32,249 nucleotides of DNA, taken from a virus (lineage: Duplodnaviria; Caudoviricetes). The notes under the pieces were generated by a model, which ran no database searches, was not told where the DNA came from, and saw only the letters and a program-made list of their open reading frames with translations. The position numbers and the translations under genes are program-made. The DNA is taken from IMG/VR virus record IMGVR_UViG_3300049441_000045, positions 1 to 32,249 of that record; one strand, written 5' to 3'. This document shows positions 1 through 10,388 of the stretch, piece after piece (the stretch's first letter is position 1; every line of letters begins with the position of its first letter).

Positions 1-134
1 CGTCGGGCAGCAGTTCGGTGAGGTGGACGGTGTCGTCGGTCCCTGAACCGGCGTCGGGGGAGGCTCTCATCGGTCGCTTCTCTCGGGGATTGTCTGCATC
101 GGCCACGGCTGGGTCGGTGTCGAGCTGAGGAGGC

Positions 135-320
135 TCACGCGCACCGCTGGCTGCACGTCGAGCAGACCACGCGGATGTCGCTGATGTCGTGAATGAGCAG
201 CGCCAGCAGCGTCACGACCCAGCGCGGCCCATCCGGGGTGTGCACCTGGGTCGCCGTCGTGCAGTGGCCGTGCCGAGACATGGTGGCCGCTATCGTGATG
301 GCTTCCCGGCGACTCATCAT
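135..320 (-). CDS. small hypothetical protein (C-terminal CxxC motif)
   Basis: ORF MMSRREAIT...VVCSTCSQRCA, with GGAG upstream of the ATG and an AT-rich promoter-like region at 340-440; start uncertain. Confidence 0.4.
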   Translation of the reverse strand: MMSRREAITIAATMSRHGHCTTATQVHTPDGPRWVVTLLALLIHDISDIRVVCSTCSQRCA

Positions 321-485
321 CGTGACGCGCTCCGATTCTTTGACTACATTCACTGAATAAATCTTTGCCTTACAATTAGTATATCGTTCTTAAACACTAT
401 TTCGTTCCCATTGTGGACGCTATTACAGCCATTGTTTTCGTGGGGGAAATCACACGTTTATGGGCGGGGGTAATATCATGGCGCT

Positions 486-683
486 ATGACAGTGCAGCCT
501 GATCAGCCCCCGTCGTTAGAGCAGCGGCTCCGCGCGGCGGTAGCGGGGCTGTGCGCCGAGATCGGCATCAGCGTGGACGACCTGCCCGAGGGGCCATCAC
601 CGCGAGAGCTGGGCCACGCGCAGGGCTGGCTCCCGGCTGAGCTGGCCGTCGACTGGGTGTGTGACCGTCCGGGCGAGATTTGA
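486..683 (+). CDS. small hypothetical protein, possibly leaderless
   Basis: 65-aa ORF; TATCAT (-10-like) at 474-479 lies 6 nt before the ATG; 3' end overlaps the antisense tRNA-like RNA. Confidence 0.4.
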   Translation: MTVQPDQPPSLEQRLRAAVAGLCAEIGISVDDLPEGPSPRELGHAQGWLPAELAVDWVCDRPGEI

Positions 684-816
684 ACCCGCGAGACATGCCC
701 TTCGGCATGTGTAGGCGTGGATGCCTACCGCCACCGCGAGGGGTGCGCGCGGTCCAGCCGCCTAGAGGCGCTCTAGTCGGGCTGAATCGCCGCTTCGGCC
801 GCTTGCATACCGGACA
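665..816 (-). ncRNA. expanded tRNA-like RNA (~152 nt) with canonical acceptor, D and T arms and four central hairpins
   Basis: Minus strand: acceptor TGTCCGG(816-810)/CCGGACG(672-666); U8-A9; D arm TGC-AAGCGGCCGAA-GCG; T arm GCGGG-TTCAAAT-CTCGC (689-673); hairpins at 754-785, 733-753, 711-728 and 693-710. Confidence 0.7.
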
Positions 817-864
817 GCCCCGAGCACTGTACTGCCCGCCGTGCTCACCGGGGGCGCAGTTTCC

Positions 865-1449
865 TCACGCCGAGTCGGCGGCGGTGAAGTGGAACTCGCG
901 GGTCTCCCGTGACGAGCCATCACCGAACTCGATCTGGCGGGACCCGATCTCCGACGCCCAGCCTGTTGCCACGGTGATGCGGCCCGCGCCGGAGGGCCAC
1001 CGCAGCTCGGCTTCGGTGCGCGCGGCCCACGGTGCGTTCGACGGCTCCGCCTCGGTGGTGAGGACCCAGTAGCCGGGCGCAGTGATCACCGTCGTGGTGC
1101 CGGTGGTGAACCCGGGCACCACCTCCGTTCCGCACGCGATGCAGTGCCACACCGGCTGGTCGTAGCCGCCGCAGTCGGCGTAACCGCAGGTCGCGTCGCA
1201 GTCGACGTGCCGAAGGGAGCTGACCAGCGTCGGTGTCGCCGCCTCCCGGTCGGCGTCCTGAGTCGAGTGGTCCGCGCGGATCCACCACCGGTGCTGGTGG
1301 CCGTGGCTGTCGGTGTGCCGCCACTTCGGGTCGGGGACCTGGCCGGTCAGGTGCGCCACCTCGGGGGCCACCGGCAGCAGGTCAGTCACCCGCATGGTGG
1401 GACCGTCCGCGACACGCAGCGTCCCACCCGTGATCACAGTGCTGGCCAT
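865..1449 (-). CDS. hypothetical protein with Cys-rich putative zinc-binding motif
   Basis: 194-aa ORF with GAGGAG RBS; motif CDATCGYADC...WHCIACG. Confidence 0.65.
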   Translation of the reverse strand: MASTVITGGTLRVADGPTMRVTDLLPVAPEVAHLTGQVPDPKWRHTDSHGHQHRWWIRADHSTQDADREAATPTLVSSLRHVDCDATCGYADCGGYDQPVWHCIACGTEVVPGFTTGTTTVITAPGYWVLTTEAEPSNAPWAARTEAELRWPSGAGRITVATGWASEIGSRQIEFGDGSSRETREFHFTAADSA

Positions 1450-1571
1450 GGCCGACTCCTCGGTAGCGCGATGGCTCGCTGGGGTGACGCTAGTTCTGCT
1501 CGTTCCAGGATTACCACACCGTCGCAGGGGGGATGGTCCGCCATGGCGCCACCGTAATCCTCAGCCCGGTC

Positions 1572-1638
1572 GGGTGATTAATCGGCTTCGGCGATTAATC
1601 CCGCCGCCGGATTAATCGCGAATCGCGATTAATCACCC
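1572..1638. repeat. array of four GATTAATC palindromes at 17-bp period in nested inverted symmetry; candidate recombination site
   Basis: GATTAATC at 1576, 1593, 1610 and 1627; outer IR GGGTGATTAATCG/CGATTAATCACCC; inner IR GCGATTAATCC/GGATTAATCGC; abuts the recombinase stop codon. Confidence 0.8.
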
Positions 1639-3093
1639 CGCGTCGTGGCCGCGGCGCCGTTCCTCGCGCCGCTCGACCGCGTCGGGGTACCGGGCGGCTT
1701 CGGCGAGGCCGCCGCGGGCCTGGGTGAGCAGGTCCCCGGCCGGGTCTTCCAGCACCCTCCCGACCCGGAACGGCCCGGGGTACGCCATACGGCACCGCCG
1801 GCAGTACGGCACCAGGCGGTACGCGCCGGGCTCGGGCTCCTCGGTGATCACACACACCGCGGTCTGGTCGACCCCGACCGGGGACAGGTCGACGTGCAAC
1901 TCGGGCCAGGTGGGGGTGCAGTCACACACCGCGGCCACCGGCGGCGCCATCCGCCGCTCGGCCCGCAGCGGCCCGAGCCGGTTCTCCGCCGGGTAGTCCT
2001 CGAACGCCGTCGACACCCGGATGGCCGGGTCGTGCTCGCGGGCCCATTCGGTCCGGTCGTAGCGTTGGGTGGTGACGGCACTGGAGTGACCGAGCCCGAC
2101 CTGCCGTTCCTCCAGGCTGGCGCCGAGGTTGCGGGCCAGGGTGTTGAAAAACGGCCGCATGTCCCGGCTGCACACACAGGTCGCGAACGGCAACCGCGCC
2201 GCGGTCGCCGACCGGCGCAGCAGCCGCAGCAGGTCATCCGGGTTGAGCCTGGTCCGGCGGCGGGGGTGCACGAACAACGGGTCCGCGCCGTACGGGTCGG
2301 GCACCTCGCCCGGTTCGGGTTCCACCCGCAACGTCAGGTAGGTCGCGAAGTCGCTGGCCATGTCCGGCGGCAGCCACCGGGGCAGCGTCGCCCCACCCTT
2401 GACCGGCACCGCGAGCTCGTAACCACCGGCGTGGTCGTCGGCGGCGCCGGACAGGTTCAGCCGGCACGCGTCACCGGGCCGCAACCCCATCCTGGCCATC
2501 ACCGCGACCAGCAACTTGCCCAGCACCCCGCCCAGGAGGTGATCCGCCCGGGCCGCGAGGACGAGCTGGTTGATGTGCGACACCGTCAGCCGGGTGCCGG
2601 TGCGGGGGTGTTTGTCCACCGCCGGGCGTTTGAGGCTGGCGAACGGGTTACGGGTCCACTCCGGCCGGGCGTCGGACAGCGTCGCGTAGCCGATCAGCGA
2701 CGAGCAGGCCGACAGGATCTGGTTACGCCGGCTCGGTCCGCGCACCCGCAGGGTGTCGGCTGAGGGGGTGTCGGCCAGCCACGACGCGAACCGGCTGGCC
2801 TGCGGCCGGGTGATCAGCAGCGGGTCCACCTGCTCGGCTGAGCACCACGCCACATACACCGACAGGCTCGACGCGTAGGTGTCCCCGGTCGCGGAGCTGG
2901 TGGCGTAGTGCTCCAGCAAAAAACCCTCCAGGATCTCGGCGAGCAGCCCGCTGGAGGTGGCCGTGGGCGCGACGAGGACCCGTTCGGGGGGTTCCAGGAA
3001 ATCGGTGGTGGTCGGCAGGCAGGCCGTGGCGGCGGCCCGGGTCAGGGTGGCCAGGCGACCCCGGGCGGGGCGGGCGGGCTGATTCACCGACAT
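1633..3093 (-). CDS. tyrosine recombinase (XerC/D / integrase family) with C-terminal Cys-rich extension
   Basis: SAM-like core-binding region (TGDTYASSLSVYVAWC); catalytic motifs GLRPGD (R), VKGG (K), SRDMR (HxxR variant), LGHSSAVTTQRY (H/Y); GGAGG RBS. Confidence 0.9.
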   Translation of the reverse strand: MSVNQPARPARGRLATLTRAAATACLPTTTDFLEPPERVLVAPTATSSGLLAEILEGFLLEHYATSSATGDTYASSLSVYVAWCSAEQVDPLLITRPQASRFASWLADTPSADTLRVRGPSRRNQILSACSSLIGYATLSDARPEWTRNPFASLKRPAVDKHPRTGTRLTVSHINQLVLAARADHLLGGVLGKLLVAVMARMGLRPGDACRLNLSGAADDHAGGYELAVPVKGGATLPRWLPPDMASDFATYLTLRVEPEPGEVPDPYGADPLFVHPRRRTRLNPDDLLRLLRRSATAARLPFATCVCSRDMRPFFNTLARNLGASLEERQVGLGHSSAVTTQRYDRTEWAREHDPAIRVSTAFEDYPAENRLGPLRAERRMAPPVAAVCDCTPTWPELHVDLSPVGVDQTAVCVITEEPEPGAYRLVPYCRRCRMAYPGPFRVGRVLEDPAGDLLTQARGGLAEAARYPDAVERREERRRGHDAG

Positions 3094-3212: not shown

Positions 3213-5966
3213 TCAAACGGGCACAAGGTCACGGCGGCGCTGCGCCGGTGGCGGTTCCGGCTCGGGCTGCCCACCCGGGGACGCCGGGGGCGCCGGGGTC
3301 TGCCCGGGCTCGGGCTGGCCACCTTCCTCTTCCGGGACCCCACCTTCCGGGGTCTCACCCTCGTCGGCGGTAGTGCCTTCGTCGTCGGGGGCGTCGGCTT
3401 CGTCGAACGCGAGTTCCCGGCGGGCGGCGCGCGGGCTGATGATCGGCGGGGTGGACGTCGCGGCGGCGATGACCACGTTCGACCGGTCGGGGCGCTGGGT
3501 GATAGCCGACGCGTCCCACCACACGCACATCGTCTCCGGGTCCGGCACCTTCGCCGCCCGTAACGCCGGCCACAGGATCTTCAACGTGATCGCCACACAA
3601 ATCTGGCTGATCAGCGGACCGATGTGGGCGCGGACCGCGTCGTCTTGTACCGCCCACGCTGAGTTGCCGGTGTAGAAGACGGTGCCCTCGTGCCGCGCCA
3701 GCCAGGTCCCGTTAGCGGTGGTCGGACACCAGATCGTCCCGCTGTGAGTCCGTTCGTCGAGGTTACGGCCCCGGGGGGCGAACGTGGTCCGCCGGCTCAT
3801 CGCGAGCACATGCTGGGTCTTGGGTCGCGGACCGGTGGCGGTGGCCCCGTCGCTGGTGTGGTCGTAGCGGTAGGTCGAGCGCCCGGAGAGGATCGCGGCC
3901 AGTTCCAGCGCGTCGAGCATCGCCGGGTTCTTCTGGCTGATGATCGGGGTCCGGGCGGTTCCCAGGTAGTGGCCGTCGCCGCGGATGGCCGTGTCGATGA
4001 ACAGCTCCAGCTGCGCCGCGGTGAGCTCGCGCACGAAGCTCGGTGGAACCACCCGCGCCGGGGCGTGCGCCAGGATCTGCTCGGCGGCGGCGGCGTTGAG
4101 GACGAACCGGGTCATGCCGTTGGGGAGCTGCAGGGTCCGCCAGCGCGGCATCTCGTCACGGACCCGGGCGTCGCGCCGCAGGTACTGGTAGATCATTGTC
4201 TCGCTCACCCGCAGCCGCGCGGCGATGGCAGCCACCTTCACGCCCTGGTGGCGCAGCTGCCGCGCTCGGGCCCGCCGCGCGACCGACTCGCCGGTGGCGT
4301 AGCGACCGCCCTTGTCGAGGGTGGTGGACTCGGGTCCGTAGAGAGTGCTCAGCGCCCGCCGGATCCGCGCGACGTTGTCCGGGTTGATCCGGTGCGACTG
4401 GTAGAGGGTCACCTGCGGGACGCGGCGGCCTGCGCGCGGGTCGGCCCGGCCCTCGGTGAAGAACCAGGCCAGCAGCTCCACGAACGCGTCGTCGTACTTC
4501 GCGGTGGTCGGCAGGTCCGCGTGCGGCGCCGAGAGCGTGAGGTAGTCGTAGCGTTGCTGGTCGGGATCCGGGGAGCCCTGGGCGAGCAGGTCACCGCTGG
4601 TGGTCCAGCGTCGGTGCTGATGGTCGCGCCCGTGCAGAATCGGCCAGCGATGGGCGCGGGTGGTCACCGACGAGTGACGGCGTCCGGTGATCGCGACCAT
4701 GGGCTCGTCGGTGACGTGCCAGGTGTTCACCGCGAGCAGCGGCTGCCACTCGGACAGCCCGGTGTCGTGGTTGAGGGTCAGCACCAGCTCGCCGACCGAA
4801 AGCTGGTCGTGAGTCTTCCAGCCTCCAGCCGTCATGATTTCTACATCAGGCAGCGTGCACCAGTGGTTGAGGTCGTCGACACCGAGGACGACGGAGGCGG
4901 GGATGTCGAGGTCGGCGGCCAGGGTCCGGCGGGCGGCTTCGCGGAGCACGGGTAGCTGCGCGTCGAACGGGGTGGAGAACGTGAGGTGTTTGAGGTTCGC
5001 GATGGTCTCGTCCGCGACCCGGAACATGATCGGCAGGCAGGCGGACGGGTCGTCGGGGTTGGCGATGGCCCGTTTGGCGGCCTCGAAGAACGCCTGCACG
5101 AAGGGGTCGACCTGGAGGTTGGCGCCTTCACTGCCGGCGGCCTGCATCAGGGTCGCGGACTCCGGGATCGGGAACACCCCAGCCCCGACGAGCCGGCTCT
5201 GGATGTCGGCCCCGACCCGGCGGGACAAACCTTTGAGCTCGTCGAGGGTTTCCAGGGCGGCCTCGAACGCGGAGGTCGCGTAGGTGGCGTCTTCGGGGTC
5301 GGGGCTGTAGATGGGGACGAACGCGACCTTGTCGGCGGGCAGCTGCACCCACCCGTCAGCGGCCATCGCCGGGTGGTCGGGCAGTTTGAGCCGCACCGTT
5401 TTCTCGGTGGCCTGCTGCCATTCCTTGCGGGACACCACCGACCAGCGGGTCTTCTCCGGTTCCCCGGCGGGGACGGTGGGGTCGGGGTAGCCCACCAGCC
5501 ACGTCGCGCCGGGGACCAGCAGGTGGATGGCGAGGCGTTTGAGCATCGCGGCCTGCCCGATCGGGCCGTCGTGCAGCTCGGCGAGGACGTCCCCGGCGAT
5601 GCCGGGTTCGAGGACCGGGTCGGGGTCGGTGTTCGCGGCGCGGGGGACCTCACCGATGTAGAGGTGGCAGCGGGACACCGCCGACGCGAGCCACCCCACC
5701 GCCTGGCGGGCCTCGCCGCAGTGCCGGTAGTAGCCCCACGCCTGCGCCTCCCACTCGGCGGGGAACGGGGGCCGCTGGTTCAGCGGTGGGCCGGTGTCGG
5801 CGATGCTGGGGACCTGCCCGGCGGCGGTCAGCGCGACCCGGGGAGCCGACGCCGCCACCGACAGCGCCGGGGGCGCCCACAGCGGCTGCGTCAGCGTCGG
5901 CGGCAGAGGTGGGGTGGGGACGAAGTAGCGGGTGAGCCGGTCCAGGACGGAGCCCATCAGGCTCAC
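3213..5966 (-). CDS. phage portal protein (actinophage type) containing an intein
   Basis: Motifs EWEAQAWGYY, SRLVGAGV, LDIPASVVLG..NHW|SAW and WWDASAITQRPDRS recall actinophage portals; downstream of terminase genes; GTG at 5966 overlaps the upstream stop (alternative ATG 5957). Confidence 0.8.
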   Translation of the reverse strand: MSLMGSVLDRLTRYFVPTPPLPPTLTQPLWAPPALSVAASAPRVALTAAGQVPSIADTGPPLNQRPPFPAEWEAQAWGYYRHCGEARQAVGWLASAVSRCHLYIGEVPRAANTDPDPVLEPGIAGDVLAELHDGPIGQAAMLKRLAIHLLVPGATWLVGYPDPTVPAGEPEKTRWSVVSRKEWQQATEKTVRLKLPDHPAMAADGWVQLPADKVAFVPIYSPDPEDATYATSAFEAALETLDELKGLSRRVGADIQSRLVGAGVFPIPESATLMQAAGSEGANLQVDPFVQAFFEAAKRAIANPDDPSACLPIMFRVADETIANLKHLTFSTPFDAQLPVLREAARRTLAADLDIPASVVLGVDDLNHWCTLPDVEIMTAGGWKTHDQLSVGELVLTLNHDTGLSEWQPLLAVNTWHVTDEPMVAITGRRHSSVTTRAHRWPILHGRDHQHRRWTTSGDLLAQGSPDPDQQRYDYLTLSAPHADLPTTAKYDDAFVELLAWFFTEGRADPRAGRRVPQVTLYQSHRINPDNVARIRRALSTLYGPESTTLDKGGRYATGESVARRARARQLRHQGVKVAAIAARLRVSETMIYQYLRRDARVRDEMPRWRTLQLPNGMTRFVLNAAAAEQILAHAPARVVPPSFVRELTAAQLELFIDTAIRGDGHYLGTARTPIISQKNPAMLDALELAAILSGRSTYRYDHTSDGATATGPRPKTQHVLAMSRRTTFAPRGRNLDERTHSGTIWCPTTANGTWLARHEGTVFYTGNSAWAVQDDAVRAHIGPLISQICVAITLKILWPALRAAKVPDPETMCVWWDASAITQRPDRSNVVIAAATSTPPIISPRAARRELAFDEADAPDDEGTTADEGETPEGGVPEEEGGQPEPGQTPAPPASPGGQPEPEPPPAQRRRDLVPV
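3663..4859 (-). mobile_element. intein (399 aa) with LAGLIDADG-like homing endonuclease region
   Basis: N-terminal CTLPDVEIMTAGGWK (block A); TRAH (block B TxxH); LLAWFFTEG and FIDTAIRGDG helices; C-terminal IWCPTTANGTWLARHEGTVFYTGN followed by Ser+1; excision restores NHW-SAW. Confidence 0.9.
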
Positions 5967-6811
5967 CTGCCTCTCGTCGACAGCGGGCCGGGGATCGGCC
6001 GGGCGCCGGGCCCGGGGCGGGGCAGCACAGCGGGCTGGGCTGTGCCCTGAGCGCGGGGGTGACCGAGGCGCTGCGCCCGGTCCAGGGCTTGGGCCGGGTC
6101 CAGGCCGAGTTCGATCTGCCAGGCCCGGGCGGCTCGTTCGACCGCGCGGGCGCGGGCGGCGGCGGTCGGCGCCGCCGGTGGCAGCAACACCGCGGCGCCC
6201 AGGCAGGACAACGCCACCGGCAGCGCGAGGGCGTCGGTGTCGTCGGTGCGCCATTCGTCGTCGGCGTCCCGGCCGGGTTTGACCCGCCGGCCGGTGTACT
6301 GGGCCACCGCGTCGTACTGGGTGGCGGTCAGGGTGATGGTGTGCTCACCGAGGCGGGCGGCCAGCAGGTCCCGCAGCTTCTTTCGGCTGACCAGGCCCCG
6401 TCCGGCGCCGGTCTGCTCCCCGGCGTAGTCCCCGATCTGCACGAGGCGCCGCCGCCACGGCGGGTTGTACCAGCGGTCCAGGTGGGTCCGCACCTCCCGG
6501 CGGCCCACCGGGGACAGCACCGTCACCCCGATGACCACCACCGGGCTGATCCGCCAGTACTCCGGATACGCCTCGGCGAGGGCCTCCAGGTAGTCGAGCT
6601 GATCGCCCAGGGTGGCCTCGTCGGGCAGGAGTGTCGCGGTGTGCGCGTGCAGCACCCCACCGTCGTGGTACCAGAACATCGAGCTGGTGGCGCCCCGGTG
6701 CCCGTAGAGGCCGATGTCCAGGGCCAGGACCCGCGCGTCGGGGGCGTCGGGGGCGTCGGTGATCGCGTCCGTCACCGAAATCGGGGCCGGGGCCGGGCCG
6801 GGGGCGGTCAC
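5963..6811 (-). CDS. degenerate RNase H-like terminase nuclease-domain protein
   Basis: VLALDIG first strand and a C-terminal DDTDALALPVAL; middle acidic residue apparently lost (VIGVT); GTGA-coupled to the terminase ATPase gene. Confidence 0.55.
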   Translation of the reverse strand: MTAPGPAPAPISVTDAITDAPDAPDARVLALDIGLYGHRGATSSMFWYHDGGVLHAHTATLLPDEATLGDQLDYLEALAEAYPEYWRISPVVVIGVTVLSPVGRREVRTHLDRWYNPPWRRRLVQIGDYAGEQTGAGRGLVSRKKLRDLLAARLGEHTITLTATQYDAVAQYTGRRVKPGRDADDEWRTDDTDALALPVALSCLGAAVLLPPAAPTAAARARAVERAARAWQIELGLDPAQALDRAQRLGHPRAQGTAQPAVLPRPGPGARPIPGPLSTRGR

Positions 6812-7620
6812 GACGCCGCCGCCGTCTGGTACCGCTCCCGGTTGCGGCGCATGATCTCCAGCGGGTCGGGCAGGGCGCCGGGGGTGGGGGCGGGGCGCAA
6901 CGCGGCGGCCAGGTCGGAGGCGTTGAACAGCCCGTAGGTCGCGGACTGGAACGCGCACTCGTACTCGGTGGCGAACCGTTCCCGCGACATCGACGCCCGC
7001 TGCCCGACGATGAACTCCGCGCTGATCCGGCTGACGTCGGTGTAGGGGACCTCCATCCGCAGCCACCCGTCGGCGCCCTTCCCGGACCACTCGGCCCAGT
7101 ACCAGCCCTGTTGCCCGTTCGGGGTGCTGATCGCGATCAGGTCACCGCCGGTCGCGGCCAGCATCGGCAGGCACGCCGTGTACAGGGACTCGGTGGTGTA
7201 CGCCGCCTCGTCGATGATCAGCAGGTGGGGGCTGTACCCGCGGACGGTGTCGGCGTGGCCGGGCAGGGCGTAGAGCACCGACCCGTTGCCCAGTTCCAGG
7301 CTCAGCGTGTTGTCCCGGACCAGGTCGATGCCCATCGCCTGGGCGAAGCGGCGGACCTTGCGGATCAGCAACGCGGACTGCCGCTGGGTGGGGGACACCG
7401 CGACGACTTCGGAGCGGGGCACGGTGTTCGCCCGGTGCAGGCCCATCGCGGCGCCGGTGCTGGACTTGCCGGCCTGCCGGGAGGTGGTGACCAGCGCGCG
7501 GTGGGGTTGGCGGCGCAGCAGCCGGGCCTGCCACCGGTCCGGGACCATCCCCGCTTTGCGCATCACCCGGGTCGCGTCGCGGCGGGCGACGAACTCGGAG
7601 AGCTGCGTGACGGTCGCCAC
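6808..7620 (-). CDS. terminase large subunit, stand-alone ATPase domain
   Basis: PDRWQ adenine-binding motif, Walker A SRQAGKS, Walker B LLIIDEAA, coupling motif ISTP; ends shortly after the EYECAF linker. Confidence 0.9.
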   Translation of the reverse strand: MATVTQLSEFVARRDATRVMRKAGMVPDRWQARLLRRQPHRALVTTSRQAGKSSTGAAMGLHRANTVPRSEVVAVSPTQRQSALLIRKVRRFAQAMGIDLVRDNTLSLELGNGSVLYALPGHADTVRGYSPHLLIIDEAAYTTESLYTACLPMLAATGGDLIAISTPNGQQGWYWAEWSGKGADGWLRMEVPYTDVSRISAEFIVGQRASMSRERFATEYECAFQSATYGLFNASDLAAALRPAPTPGALPDPLEIMRRNRERYQTAAAS

Positions 7621-8325: not shown

Positions 8326-8397
8326 GCGTCGGTGGTGTAGTGGTAACACGGTCACTGTCCAGGTGGCTGCCGTTAGGTTCGATTCCTGCCCGACGCT
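8326..8397 (+). tRNA. non-canonical tRNA-Gly (anticodon TCC), no encoded CCA
   Basis: Acceptor GCGTCGG/CCGACGC; D stem GTGT/ACAC with AGTGGTA loop; anticodon stem GTCAC/GTGGC with loop TG-TCC-AG (8358-8360); T arm TTAGG-TTCGATT-CCTGC; U73. Confidence 0.85.
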
Positions 8398-8430
8398 CGC
8401 GCCCCGCCCGGAAGGGGGGGTCAGTCCCCG

Positions 8431-9798
8431 ATGTACGAGGGCACCGTCCCGGCCGCGTTGCGGTCCATCGTCGCTGAGCACGCCCGGCTGTGGCCGGAGG
8501 GCAGCGACGTGTACGTGGGGTCCTCGGGCACCCTGCTGGTGGAACGCACCCTGGCCGGGTCGGTCGGGGCGCGGGGGCTGCGGCTGCACTCCAACGACGT
8601 CACCGCGGCCGGGTGCGCCGTCGGCTGGTACTTCGCCGGCCAACCCGTGCCGTTCACGCTGCGTGAGGACGCCGAGGAGGAGTTGGGGTGGCTCCGGGAG
8701 TACCTCGACGGGCCGACCGCGACCCTCGCCACGCTGATGCTGGGCGCCAAGTGGCTGCCCTGGCTGACCAAACCCGGCGCGTATCACCAGCGGATGGTCG
8801 CCGGGTACCGGGCGCAGTGGCCCAGGCTGCACGCCGCGACGGTCCGCAAACTCCAGGCCGCGACGCTGCGGCTGGAGTCGTTCACCGCCGGCGACGTGCG
8901 GCAGTTCCTGGCCGACGCCCCACCCGGCTGCCCGGTCGCGTCGTTCCCGCCGTTCTGGGGCGGCGGCGGGGACACCCAGTCCGCCGGCTTGGAGGACTAC
9001 TTCACCTGGCCCGCCCCAACCCAAGAACCCCTCGACGAGGACGGCGGAGCCGAGCTCATCGACCTGATCTGCGACCGGCCGTACTGGATCCTGGGGTTGA
9101 ACGAGGAGCTCCCGGCGCTGGAGCCCTACCGGGTCGGGTACGTGCGCTCCACCCCCCGGGCGCAGCCGTGGTTCGTGTTCGCGCACCCGGGGGTGGCCCG
9201 CTACGTCGGGCCGGACCAGAAGACGGCGCCGGTGCTGATGCCCCGCCTCGGGGAACACGACCAGCTCGGGCCGGACCTGCGGTTGCATCCGCTGACGAGC
9301 CCGCAGTTCAACTCGCTGCGCTCGGCGTACCTGGGTAAGGGCATCGCGCCCGGGGAGCCGCTGTTCGGGTGCGGGGTGTCCTCCGGCGGCCGGATCATCG
9401 GGGCGTTCGGGTACCTGTGGACCCCCCGCTACGGCCTCGACGCCTACCTCATGTCCGATTTCGCGGTCGCCCCGACCCGGTACCGGCGGCTGAGCAAGCT
9501 GATCGTGATGGCCGCGATCAGCCAGGAGGCGCAGCTACTCATGCAGCGGGCCGTGTCCCGGCGAGTCACGGGCTGGGTGACGACCGCGTTCAGCCACAAC
9601 CCCAGCGCCCCGAAATACGCGCGGGGGGTGCCCGGGGTGGTGCTGTTCGCCCGCAAACCCTGCGAGGACGGGGTGCACCCCTGGCAGTTGCAGTACGGCG
9701 GGCCGCTGGGGCAGTGGACGCTGCCCGAGGCCCTGGCCCGGTGGTCAGCACGGCACGGGCAGTTGGTGACCGGCGACACCCGCGAGCACGCCGAATGA
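8431..9798 (+). CDS. putative antirestriction DNA adenine-modification protein (Dam-like N-terminal fold plus GNAT/Mom-like C-terminal region)
   Basis: Motif I-like VYVGSSG, LHSNDV, motif IV variant SFPPF; C-terminal IIGAFGY...YLMSDFAV..RYRRLSKLIV...TTAFSHNP..KY resembles a GNAT beta4/motif A/beta5 arrangement. Confidence 0.7.
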   Translation: MYEGTVPAALRSIVAEHARLWPEGSDVYVGSSGTLLVERTLAGSVGARGLRLHSNDVTAAGCAVGWYFAGQPVPFTLREDAEEELGWLREYLDGPTATLATLMLGAKWLPWLTKPGAYHQRMVAGYRAQWPRLHAATVRKLQAATLRLESFTAGDVRQFLADAPPGCPVASFPPFWGGGGDTQSAGLEDYFTWPAPTQEPLDEDGGAELIDLICDRPYWILGLNEELPALEPYRVGYVRSTPRAQPWFVFAHPGVARYVGPDQKTAPVLMPRLGEHDQLGPDLRLHPLTSPQFNSLRSAYLGKGIAPGEPLFGCGVSSGGRIIGAFGYLWTPRYGLDAYLMSDFAVAPTRYRRLSKLIVMAAISQEAQLLMQRAVSRRVTGWVTTAFSHNPSAPKYARGVPGVVLFARKPCEDGVHPWQLQYGGPLGQWTLPEALARWSARHGQLVTGDTREHAE

Positions 9799-10388
9799 TG
9801 ATCAGCGTCGGGCTCGACGTCGGGAAGAAAAACGACCCCGCCGCGCTCGCGGTGCTGCACACCACCGGCACCCGCCCCGACAGCCACCGGCCGGCGTGGA
9901 CCTGCCTGGAGGTGGGGAACCTGCCGCTGGGCACCCCCTACGAGCAGATCGCGATCCGGGCGGTGGACCTGGGCCGGGACTTCGCCGCCGCGGGCTACCC
10001 GGTGGTGCTGACGATCGACACCACCGGCATCGGCGACGCGGTCGTCGAGCTGGCCCGGGCGAAAGACACGGAGCTGCACATCGTCGCGGTCACCATCGGC
10101 GCCGGCCGGGTCCTGACCCACACCGCCCCCGACGACTACACCGTCGGCAAGCACCGGCTGACCGACGTGCTGGCGGTCGCGTTGCAGCAGGGCGGCCTGG
10201 TGCTGCCCGACACCGCCGGGGGGCGGCTGGCGGGGCAGCAGATGGCCCGGTTCGTCGCGGTCCCCACCGCCACCGGCTACCACCGGCATGAGGCGTCGGC
10301 CGGGCACGACGACCTGGTGCTGGCCCTGGAGCTCGGGGTCTGGACCGGGGACTCCCTCTACGATCAGGTCGCCGGGGTCGGCCCCTGA
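9795..10388 (+). CDS. stand-alone terminase-type RNase H-like nuclease domain
   Basis: VGLDVGKKNDPAAL, TIDTTGIGDAV and GHDDLVLAL give the full acidic triad of terminase C-terminal nucleases; ATGA overlap with the upstream gene. Confidence 0.8.
   Translation: MMISVGLDVGKKNDPAALAVLHTTGTRPDSHRPAWTCLEVGNLPLGTPYEQIAIRAVDLGRDFAAAGYPVVLTIDTTGIGDAVVELARAKDTELHIVAVTIGAGRVLTHTAPDDYTVGKHRLTDVLAVALQQGGLVLPDTAGGRLAGQQMARFVAVPTATGYHRHEASAGHDDLVLALELGVWTGDSLYDQVAGVGP

What the first reader, a model, noticed from the sequence alone, without database searches (positions are those of the whole stretch)
665..816. Double-length tRNA-like RNA: intact elbow with four central hairpins
Seen (minus strand): a 7-bp acceptor stem, a class II-style D arm and a T arm with TTCAAAT loop. 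The elbow tertiary partners are all in place (U8:A14, G15:C48, G18/G19 with T-loop U55/C56, U54:A58). About 100 nt of four consecutive hairpins lie between the D and T arms. The last (ACATGCC-GAAG-GGCATGT) sits like a long variable arm. The third (GTAGGC-ATCCAC-GCCTAC) sits like an anticodon arm with a 6-nt loop containing TCC. The first two form a ~60-nt insertion. The 3' end reads G-TCA rather than N-CCA. Preserved pairing throughout argues against random decay. Inference: an undescribed tRNA-mimic ncRNA, such as a decoy for anticodon nucleases, an RNase P-processed scaffold, or an amino-acid carrier (G73 plus a long variable arm are SerRS-type determinants). It lies just downstream of a co-oriented Cys-rich protein gene (865-1449) that could be its partner.
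Basis: partly seen in the sequence, partly recalled or inferred. Interest (0 to 1): 0.85.

Follow-up and report, generated by a model that had tools for sequence, protein, structure and literature searches.

The report
Four-armed tyrosine-tRNA mimic in soil phage
A soil phage, likely of actinobacteria, carries a 152-base stretch with the outer frame of a tyrosine tRNA but no codon-reading loop and four predicted inner hairpins; it is likely a non-translating tRNA look-alike of the kind annotated in phage T5, possibly a bait for host proteins that attack tRNA, but no relative and no transcript were found.

Summary
The tRNA frame at 816-665 (minus strand) is real. A frame descriptor finds it once in the window and in 0 of 1000 shuffles; Rfam and ARAGORN do not call it. 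It comes from a phage tRNA-Tyr chassis: 45 of 58 viral loci with its D-arm motif are tRNA-Tyr(GTA). Tyrosine identity is lost (no anticodon; G73, against A73 in 18 of 18 relatives). No homolog of the inner arms was found, so covariation is untested for this RNA, and no RNA run was listed. The kind is not new: T5 RNA1/RNA2 are annotated tRNA-like stable RNAs of unknown function, other phages carry oversized frames on the same chassis (one family covaries), and this scan noted similar mimics on other DNA. New here are three hairpins in the variable region and a solitary position in a variable slot of a likely temperate actinophage. Best reading: a non-decoding tRNA mimic (about 0.65 functional), most plausibly a bait for tRNA-targeting host proteins (0.35). 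Partnership with ORF 865-1449 is unsupported.

The parts
665..816 (-). tRNA-shaped RNA gene, 152 nt through the discriminator G73
810..816 (-). acceptor stem 5' strand (U1.G72, G2-C71, U3-A70, C4-G69, C5-G68, G6-C67, G7-C66)
791..807 (-). D arm of phage tRNA-Tyr type: 3-bp stem, 11-nt loop with A14, G15, G18, G19
749..790 (-). arm 1: long interrupted arm (3+7+6 bp, 3-nt tip) in the anticodon-arm slot; no anticodon loop
   Evidence: 7- and 6-bp helices: pair probability 0.90 and 0.99
730..748 (-). arm 2: weak hairpin, forms when the D arm is enforced or the centre is folded alone
   Evidence: (0.14 in the free ensemble)
711..728 (-). arm 3: 6-bp hairpin with a 6-nt loop containing TCC; not a canonical anticodon arm
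693..710 (-). arm 4: 7-bp hairpin in the class II variable-arm position, followed by two unpaired bases and C48 (692-690)
673..689 (-). T arm, 5 bp (one G.U), loop TTCAAAT
662..672 (-). acceptor 3' strand, G73 (665) and TCA in place of an encoded CCA
817..819 (-). putative 3-nt leader that can pair with 665-663 and extend the terminal stem to 10 bp
826..831 (-). TANNNT hexamer, a putative -10 element that would start transcription near 819; only 23 such hexamers on the 32-kb minus strand; no -35 seen; function inferred, consensus recalled
   Evidence: not reported by the sigma-70 scan
865..1449 (-). 194-aa His/Cys-rich ORF of an unnamed family (158 relatives at E<=0.001); upstream neighbour, no evidence of partnership
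1633..3093 (-). tyrosine recombinase; relatives named in Kutzneria and Saccharothrix; marks the edge of the block shared with two related proviruses

Best explanation
The sequence keeps the acceptor, D and T arms of a phage tRNA-Tyr but lacks the anticodon and A73, so it is likely a non-decoding tRNA mimic that would fold a normal elbow and likely serve as a bait for host proteins that recognise tRNA shape, most plausibly tRNA-attacking defence nucleases or toxins. Steps. (1) Shown: tRNA frame, tRNA-Tyr-type D arm and T-arm junction, no anticodon loop, G73. (2) Inferred: transcription from the TANNNT hexamer at 831-826, or read-through from ORF 865-1449. (3) Inferred: trimming by RNase P and 3' nucleases with CCA added after G73, giving a stable RNA. 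(4) Follows from known identity rules: TyrRS and LeuRS should reject it and it cannot read codons. (5) Least supported: it competes with host tRNA for a tRNA-targeting protein during infection. My odds: about 0.65 that it is a functional non-decoding RNA of some kind, about 0.35 for the bait role.
For: Frame beyond chance. Chassis: 45 of 58 loci (21 of 32 distinct sequences) with the D-arm motif are tRNA-Tyr(GTA). Of 18 distinct such tRNA-Tyr, 18 have A73, 17 G1-C72, and 15 TTC before the T stem, against CTC here. G73 is an antideterminant for TyrRS and LeuRS, and tyrosylation needs A73 and U35 (PMC9976931, passages). Precedent of kind: T5 RNA1 (144 nt) and RNA2 (125 nt) are annotated 'tRNA-like stable RNA with unknown functions' and fold with a long arm in the anticodon slot. 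Other oversized frames on the same D arm: L003, L114, L118, L136, L145, L115, L117, L367. A separate 13-sequence family on this chassis keeps its pairs: 94% of cells paired, 11 of 39 pairs changed on both sides, 0 of 500 shuffles reach its covariation score. tRNA-Tyr is a defence target: Septu cleaves its variable loop, and the authors suggest that phage tRNA-Tyr may act as decoy or supplement (PMC13096335, passages). The RNA sits in a variable slot: two syntenic proviruses share the block from the GNAT gene to the recombinase and differ downstream.
Against: No homolog of the inner arms in any search, so selection on this RNA is not shown. The covarying family is a different family; its structure was drawn by hand from those same related sequences, and its 'further pair types' measure (21) fell below the shuffles (25.4). 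Changing the anticodon of phage tRNA-Tyr abolished rescue from retron-Eco7 (PMC11555353, passages), which argues against a non-decoding bait for that system. U1.G72, the missing CCA and the 10-bp terminal stem could hinder processing. The inner fold is matched by 3 of 98 background windows. No terminator-like site was found. No host defence system is known for this phage.
Confidence: 0.35

Rival explanations
1. A decaying tRNA-Tyr gene or one-off: a phage tRNA-Tyr that lost its anticodon and gained G+C-rich hairpin DNA, with no present function.
For: Singleton: no homolog. Not found in the two closest related proviruses, 75% and 27% complete. U1.G72, G73 and TCA depart from the chassis. Hairpins this stable occur in 3 of 98 background windows.
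Against: All 7+3+5 frame pairs and all elbow bases are intact although the centre is wholly rebuilt. Arms 1, 3 and 4 pair almost perfectly. A rare TANNNT hexamer lies at a fitting distance. The same kind of rebuilding is conserved with covariation in another family.
Confidence: 0.27
2. A tRNA used as a stable chassis: the frame gives processing and nuclease resistance, and the working parts are the inner arms, which bind a phage or host protein or RNA unrelated to tRNA metabolism.
For: About 98 of 152 nt are non-tRNA arms. Frames on this chassis carry very different inserts. In the 13-sequence family an inner loop is nearly invariant.
Against: No ligand or partner identified. The upstream ORF's one relative with context has no such RNA next to it. 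No conserved inner motif can be named for this RNA.
Confidence: 0.2
3. A non-ribosomal amino-acid carrier: serylated by SerRS (G73, G2-C71, long arm, no anticodon needed), or glycine-related through the TCC loop, feeding a phage aminoacyl transferase such as the GNAT protein at 8431-9798.
For: [quoted passage not shown] The window has a DAM-like/GNAT gene with an adjacent tRNA-Gly. A phage GNAT enzyme uses charged tRNA to modify DNA (PMC13219725, abstract start and passages). The tRNA-Gly counterpart in L309 also has a 6-nt loop with TCC (read by eye).
Against: G1-C72, described as conserved in most bacterial tRNA-Ser, is absent. The junction before the T arm is Tyr-like. The GNAT gene already has its own tRNA and is conserved in relatives where this RNA was not found. 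TCC in a short loop is a likely chance event.
Confidence: 0.1
4. An intron-containing tRNA that is spliced to a decoding tRNA.
For: Lak phages have predicted tRNA introns (PMC6784885, passages). 113 of 3021 in-silico excisions get an ARAGORN call.
Against: Those calls scatter over 17 anticodon labels, none dominant and the commonest undetermined. Only one excision gives a 5-bp stem with a Y32-U33-R37 loop, and it leaves no room for a variable region and T arm. No strand near arm 4 pairs with positions 27-31. No bulge-helix-bulge is seen in arm 1 (by eye).
Confidence: 0.05
5. An attachment-site remnant: a copy of a host tRNA 3' end used by the nearby recombinase.
For: Tyrosine recombinase 0.8 kb upstream; relatives are proviruses.
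Against: The 23-nt T-arm/acceptor stretch matched 0 of 301 genomes of an actinobacterial order at up to 2 mismatches (a sample, host not known to be in it). Both halves of the frame are present and complementary. The D arm is of a phage type.
Confidence: 0.03

Closest known systems
Phage T5 RNA1 (rna1, T5s03) and RNA2 (rna2, T5s06), NC_005859
   Same: Annotated tRNA-like stable RNAs of unknown function, 144 and 125 nt; acceptor, D and T arms kept, long arm in the anticodon slot, one variable hairpin.
   Different: No sequence match (model R1 gives no hit in the T5 region at E<=1). They lie in a tRNA cluster. This RNA is solitary, has a Tyr-type D arm and has three hairpins, not one, between the long arm and the T arm.
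Phage T4 species 1 RNA (rnaC), NC_000866
   Same: 139-nt stable phage RNA with a perfect T arm and large inner arms; function unknown, expressed late (PMC9697503, passages).
   Different: Mismatched acceptor and no recognisable D loop in rnaC; no sequence match.
Phage class II tRNA-Tyr(GUA) with the TATGCAAGYGG D arm (RF00005)
   Same: D arm, two unpaired bases before C48, 7/5 acceptor-T branch.
   Different: No anticodon arm or GUA; G73 for A73; U1.G72 for G1-C72; about 70 nt longer.
YrlA Y RNAs (RF02553; PMC4201824)
   Same: Non-decoding tRNA mimic keeping D-loop and T-loop contacts; known from actinobacteria and mycobacteriophages.
   Different: In YrlA the acceptor-like stem-loop lies between T and D and the gene is adjacent to Ro60. 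Here the order is D then T with an open acceptor end, there is no Rfam match and no Ro60 hit among 44 ORFs.
Allo-tRNAs (PMC5389517)
   Same: Long variable arm and G73.
   Different: Allo-tRNAs have 8/4 or 9/3 branches, a long D stem with tetraloop and working anticodons; this has 7/5, a 3-bp D stem and no anticodon.

Membership tests
Canonical tRNA (RF00005) | 7-bp acceptor, D arm, 5-bp T arm with conserved elbow bases | tested here: met
Canonical tRNA (RF00005) | 5-bp anticodon stem with 7-nt loop (Y32, U33, R37) after position 26 | tested here: not met
   arm 1 has a 3-nt tip; no Rfam tRNA or ARAGORN call
tRNA-Tyr identity | A73 and anticodon U35 | tested here: not met
   G73, no anticodon; rule from PMC9976931
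tRNA-Ser identity | long variable arm, G73, G2-C71 | tested here: met
tRNA-Ser identity | G1-C72 | tested here: not met
   U1.G72
tRNA-Ser identity | actual serylation and variable-arm orientation in 3D | not testable with these tools
   needs an aminoacylation assay
T5 RNA1/RNA2-type tRNA-like RNAs | tRNA frame with a long non-decoding arm in the anticodon slot | tested here: met
T5 RNA1/RNA2-type tRNA-like RNAs | sequence homology to RNA1 or RNA2 | tested here: not met
   no hit in L308 with model R1; blastn of the phage collection covers at most 16% of the query
T5 RNA1/RNA2-type tRNA-like RNAs | accumulates as a stable RNA | not testable with these tools
   needs RNA data from infected or induced cells
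Intron-containing tRNA | removal of one segment restores a canonical anticodon arm and a normal body | tested here: not met
tmRNA | G3.U70 alanine pair (use in tmRNA recalled) and a tag reading frame | tested here: not met
   U3-A70; no ARAGORN tmRNA at default threshold; no Rfam match
YrlA Y RNA (RF02553) | closed acceptor-like stem-loop between T and D | tested here: not met
YrlA Y RNA (RF02553) | adjacent Ro60/Rsr gene | tested here: inconclusive
   none among 44 ORFs scanned; the record is 26% complete and the RNA lies 0.66 kb from its end
Allo-tRNA | 8/4 or 9/3 branch, long D stem with tetraloop | tested here: not met

The most novel reading that the evidence does not exclude
Phages repeatedly turn the tRNA-Tyr chassis into non-decoding anti-defence RNAs, and this four-armed form is one: it presents an intact elbow and several variable-arm-like hairpins that soak up tRNA-cleaving or tRNA-modifying defence proteins. 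That would give a function to a class open since T5 RNA1/RNA2 were annotated.
Probability: 0.2. Interest if true: 0.8.

Novelty: new variant of a known kind. Interest (0 to 1): 0.42.

Why it matters
Phage tRNA-like RNAs without anticodons are annotated in T5 and T4 with no known function, and standard tRNA finders miss them. A shape-only decoy would be a counter-defence route distinct from tRNA replacement. As a single unvalidated member without homologs or expression data, this locus is a modest addition. The 13-sequence family found on the way is the better test object.

Tried and rejected
Known-family scans: Rfam on 1-3000 gave only tRNA-Sec at 18.1 bits, E 3.8. ARAGORN found only tRNA-Gly at 8326-8398. 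Relaxed ARAGORN gave 12 tRNA, 3 tmRNA and 8 mitochondrial-type calls in 3 kb, treated as noise. All pattern scans needed exact D-arm or T-loop words, so a diverged homolog could be missed. No RNA holder listed among public runs; this says nothing about expression. ORF 865-1449: nothing in Pfam or PHROGs, viral loci, word search, phages or plasmids; Atlas hits under 0.9; profile in 1 of 401 and 0 of 401 genomes. Portal-based locus search found nothing; the recombinase profile found 0 of 301 genomes. Rejected: hairpin 3 as anticodon arm, serine origin, intron, tmRNA, YrlA, allo-tRNA, attP. Literature searches listed no paper on this RNA or on T5 RNA1/RNA2; the library lacks most subscription and old papers. 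Supplements were not read; those of PMC5389517 (irregular tRNA polycistrons) and PMC6784885 (intron table) may hold related sequences.

Full report
Setting. The window is a whole 32,249-base virus record, 26% complete. It encodes tail, tape-measure, ParA, terminase, portal and tyrosine-recombinase proteins. The portal's matches are mostly actinobacterial phages, and the recombinase has relatives named in Kutzneria and Saccharothrix, so an actinobacterial host is likely. The four runs that hold the DNA are soil or rhizosphere metagenomes; one may be its source. On the minus strand the order is terminase, portal, recombinase (3093-1633), a 194-aa ORF (1449-865), the RNA (816-665), then an A+T-rich tract.

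Observation. A strict frame descriptor hits the window once, here, and 0 of 1000 whole-window shuffles. The region folds at z -3.72. Arms 1, 3 and 4 are firmly predicted. Arm 2 (0.14) and the D stem appear only when the D arm is enforced, at 4.1 kcal/mol above the minimum; 0 of 21 true tRNA-Tyr with this D arm show the D stem in their minimum fold either. The centre alone scores z -3.25, reached by 3 of 98 background windows. The terminal stem can extend to 10 bp. Rfam and ARAGORN do not call the RNA.

What the frame came from. An 18-base D-arm pattern matched 58 viral loci. ARAGORN called 45 of them tRNA-Tyr(GTA), 6 other anticodons and 7 nothing. Many rows are near-duplicates; by distinct sequence it is 21 of 32. 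Among 18 distinct tRNA-Tyr, 18 have A73, 17 G1-C72 and 15 TTC before the T stem. The window RNA keeps the D arm and the junction type (CTC) but has G73, U1.G72 and no anticodon. By the identity review (PMC9976931, passages), tyrosylation needs A73 and U35, G73 is an antideterminant for TyrRS and LeuRS, and serine identity rests on the variable arm, independent of the anticodon, with G1-C72 and G2-C71 conserved in most bacterial tRNA-Ser. So tyrosine identity is lost and serine identity is partial.

Which arm is which. Arm 1 starts at position 26/27, directly after the D stem, so it fills the anticodon slot; arms 2-4 fill the variable region. A model built from this one sequence aligns the base of arm 1 to the anticodon stem and arm 4 to the variable arm of ordinary tRNAs. 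Of 3021 excisions, 113 drew an ARAGORN call, spread over 17 labels. One excision gave a canonical loop, and it left no room for a variable region and T arm. An intron reading is therefore unlikely; predicted phage tRNA introns do exist in Lak phages (PMC6784885, passages).

Relatives. No sequence homolog of the inner arms was found. Two proviruses share the block from the GNAT gene to the recombinase at about 65-75% DNA identity and diverge right after it. Neither RNA nor ORF was found in them (records 75% and 27% complete). The ORF belongs to an unnamed His/Cys family (158 relatives). Its one relative with readable context is followed by two other ORFs and then, about 710 bases on, by a different, class I tRNA-like gene with a 5-nt loop, not by this RNA. 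One case cannot separate partnership from shared genome geography; I count it as no support.

The kind. Pattern scans returned other single closed frames on the same D arm with unrelated inserts: L003, L114 and L118 in tRNA clusters of 250-280-kb phage contigs; L115, L117, L136, L145 and L367; L113, which keeps a GTA anticodon beside a long variable region; and a family with a bulged acceptor (L038, L098, L124 and others). A strict survey of 317 loci (1.29 Mb, enriched for T loops by design) gave 21 distinct frames of 100 nt or more. These include this RNA, L113 and at least one likely two-tRNA artefact, L150. For the bulged family, 13 distinct sequences gave 94% paired cells, 11 of 39 pairs changed on both sides and 0 of 500 shuffles at its covariation score. 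The structure was drawn by hand from these related sequences, and one of five measures fell below the shuffles. This supports selection on the kind, not on this copy. T5 RNA1 and RNA2 are annotated as tRNA-like stable RNAs of unknown function and fold with a long arm in the anticodon slot. T4 rnaC is a looser case (PMC9697503, passages). Earlier notes of this scan describe similar mimics on other DNA, one on a tyrosine body; they are unchecked, and I used them only as leads. None matched this sequence.

Mechanism. Shown: frame, chassis, loss of decoding parts. Inferred: a TANNNT hexamer at 831-826, one of 23 on the minus strand, would start a transcript near 819 (consensus recalled; the sigma-70 scan did not report it and found no terminator). 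Processing and CCA addition would follow, as shown for M. smegmatis YrlA (PMC4201824, passages). I commit to a bait for tRNA-recognising host proteins at 0.35. For: tRNA-Tyr is cleaved in its variable loop by Septu and retron-Eco7, and a decoy role has been suggested (PMC13096335, passages); the RNA multiplies variable-region hairpins and sits in a variable slot. Against: changing the anticodon of phage tRNA-Tyr abolished rescue from retron-Eco7 (PMC11555353, passages). Rivals: decay 0.27, stable chassis for cargo arms 0.2, amino-acid carrier 0.1, intron 0.05, attachment site 0.03 (0 of 301 genomes carry the 3' stretch).

Membership and novelty. It fails defining tests for canonical tRNA, tRNA-Tyr, tmRNA, YrlA, allo-tRNA (PMC5389517, part 2 of 5 of the text) and intron-containing tRNA. 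It is built like T5 RNA1/RNA2 but is not of their sequence family. A review of non-canonical tRNAs (PMC7609411, passages) does not contain the word 'phage'. Six literature searches listed no paper on this RNA; the library is incomplete and supplements were not read. Verdict: a new variant of a known but unexplained kind, distinguished by three variable-region hairpins and a solitary location. Real as a sequence feature, unproven as a functional RNA. Interest 0.42.

Noticed in passing
window 8326-8398 (+) and 8431-9798 (+); L309 5678-5750 (-): A tRNA-Gly(TCC) with G in place of U33 and a mismatched T stem lies directly upstream of a DAM-like/GNAT gene. A related provirus keeps an odd tRNA at the same place, with a 6-nt loop containing TCC. 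Possibly a dedicated glycine donor for DNA adenine modification, as for Mom-type enzymes (PMC13219725).
   Followed up: partly
window about 3663-4859 (-), inside the portal ORF 3213-6254: An insertion of about 400 residues with intein-like ends (motif recalled) and a weak HTH hit; absent in L309 and L310, where the flanks join directly.
   Followed up: partly
window 1572-1641: Four GATTAAT-type palindromic units in two 32-nt repeats between the recombinase and ORF 865-1449; operator-like or a hairpin pair.
   Followed up: no
window 6808-7620 (-), about 5963-6730 (-), about 9800-10388 (+): The terminase ATPase is only 270 aa. Two separate ORFs look like nuclease domains (motif recalled, no family hit for the first, second not scanned); all three regions are conserved in L309 and L310.
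   Followed up: no
window about 330-500: A+T-rich tract downstream of the RNA, holding the region's only sigma-70-like site (+ strand, 349-376); possible promoter region or origin.
   Followed up: no
L124, L126, L129, L133, L138, L140, L143, L149, L154, L163, L165, L171, L179 (also L038, L098): An uncatalogued family of 135-150-nt tRNA-like RNAs on the same D arm, with a bulged acceptor stem, a long arm with a near-invariant loop, and covariation. No Rfam match for L038 and L098.
   Followed up: partly
L113 2490-2596 (-); L159 16-153 (-): L113 is a tRNA-Tyr(GTA) with intact anticodon and CCA but a ~40-nt variable region, a possible intermediate. In L159 an anticodon-like stem appears to close around a long insert (by eye), an intron candidate.
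   Followed up: no
L376 1175-1256 (+): Class I tRNA-like gene with an extended anticodon stem and 5-nt loop, behind a small hairpin (about 1141-1162) and about 710 bases downstream of a relative of ORF 865-1449; ARAGORN calls it Ser(GGA).
   Followed up: partly
L363, L365, L323, L350, L362, L330: The tRNA-Tyr-type chassis carries other anticodons (Leu CAA, Met CAT, Lys TTT, Glu TTC, His GTG) in 6 of 58 loci; identity and anticodon may disagree.
   Followed up: no
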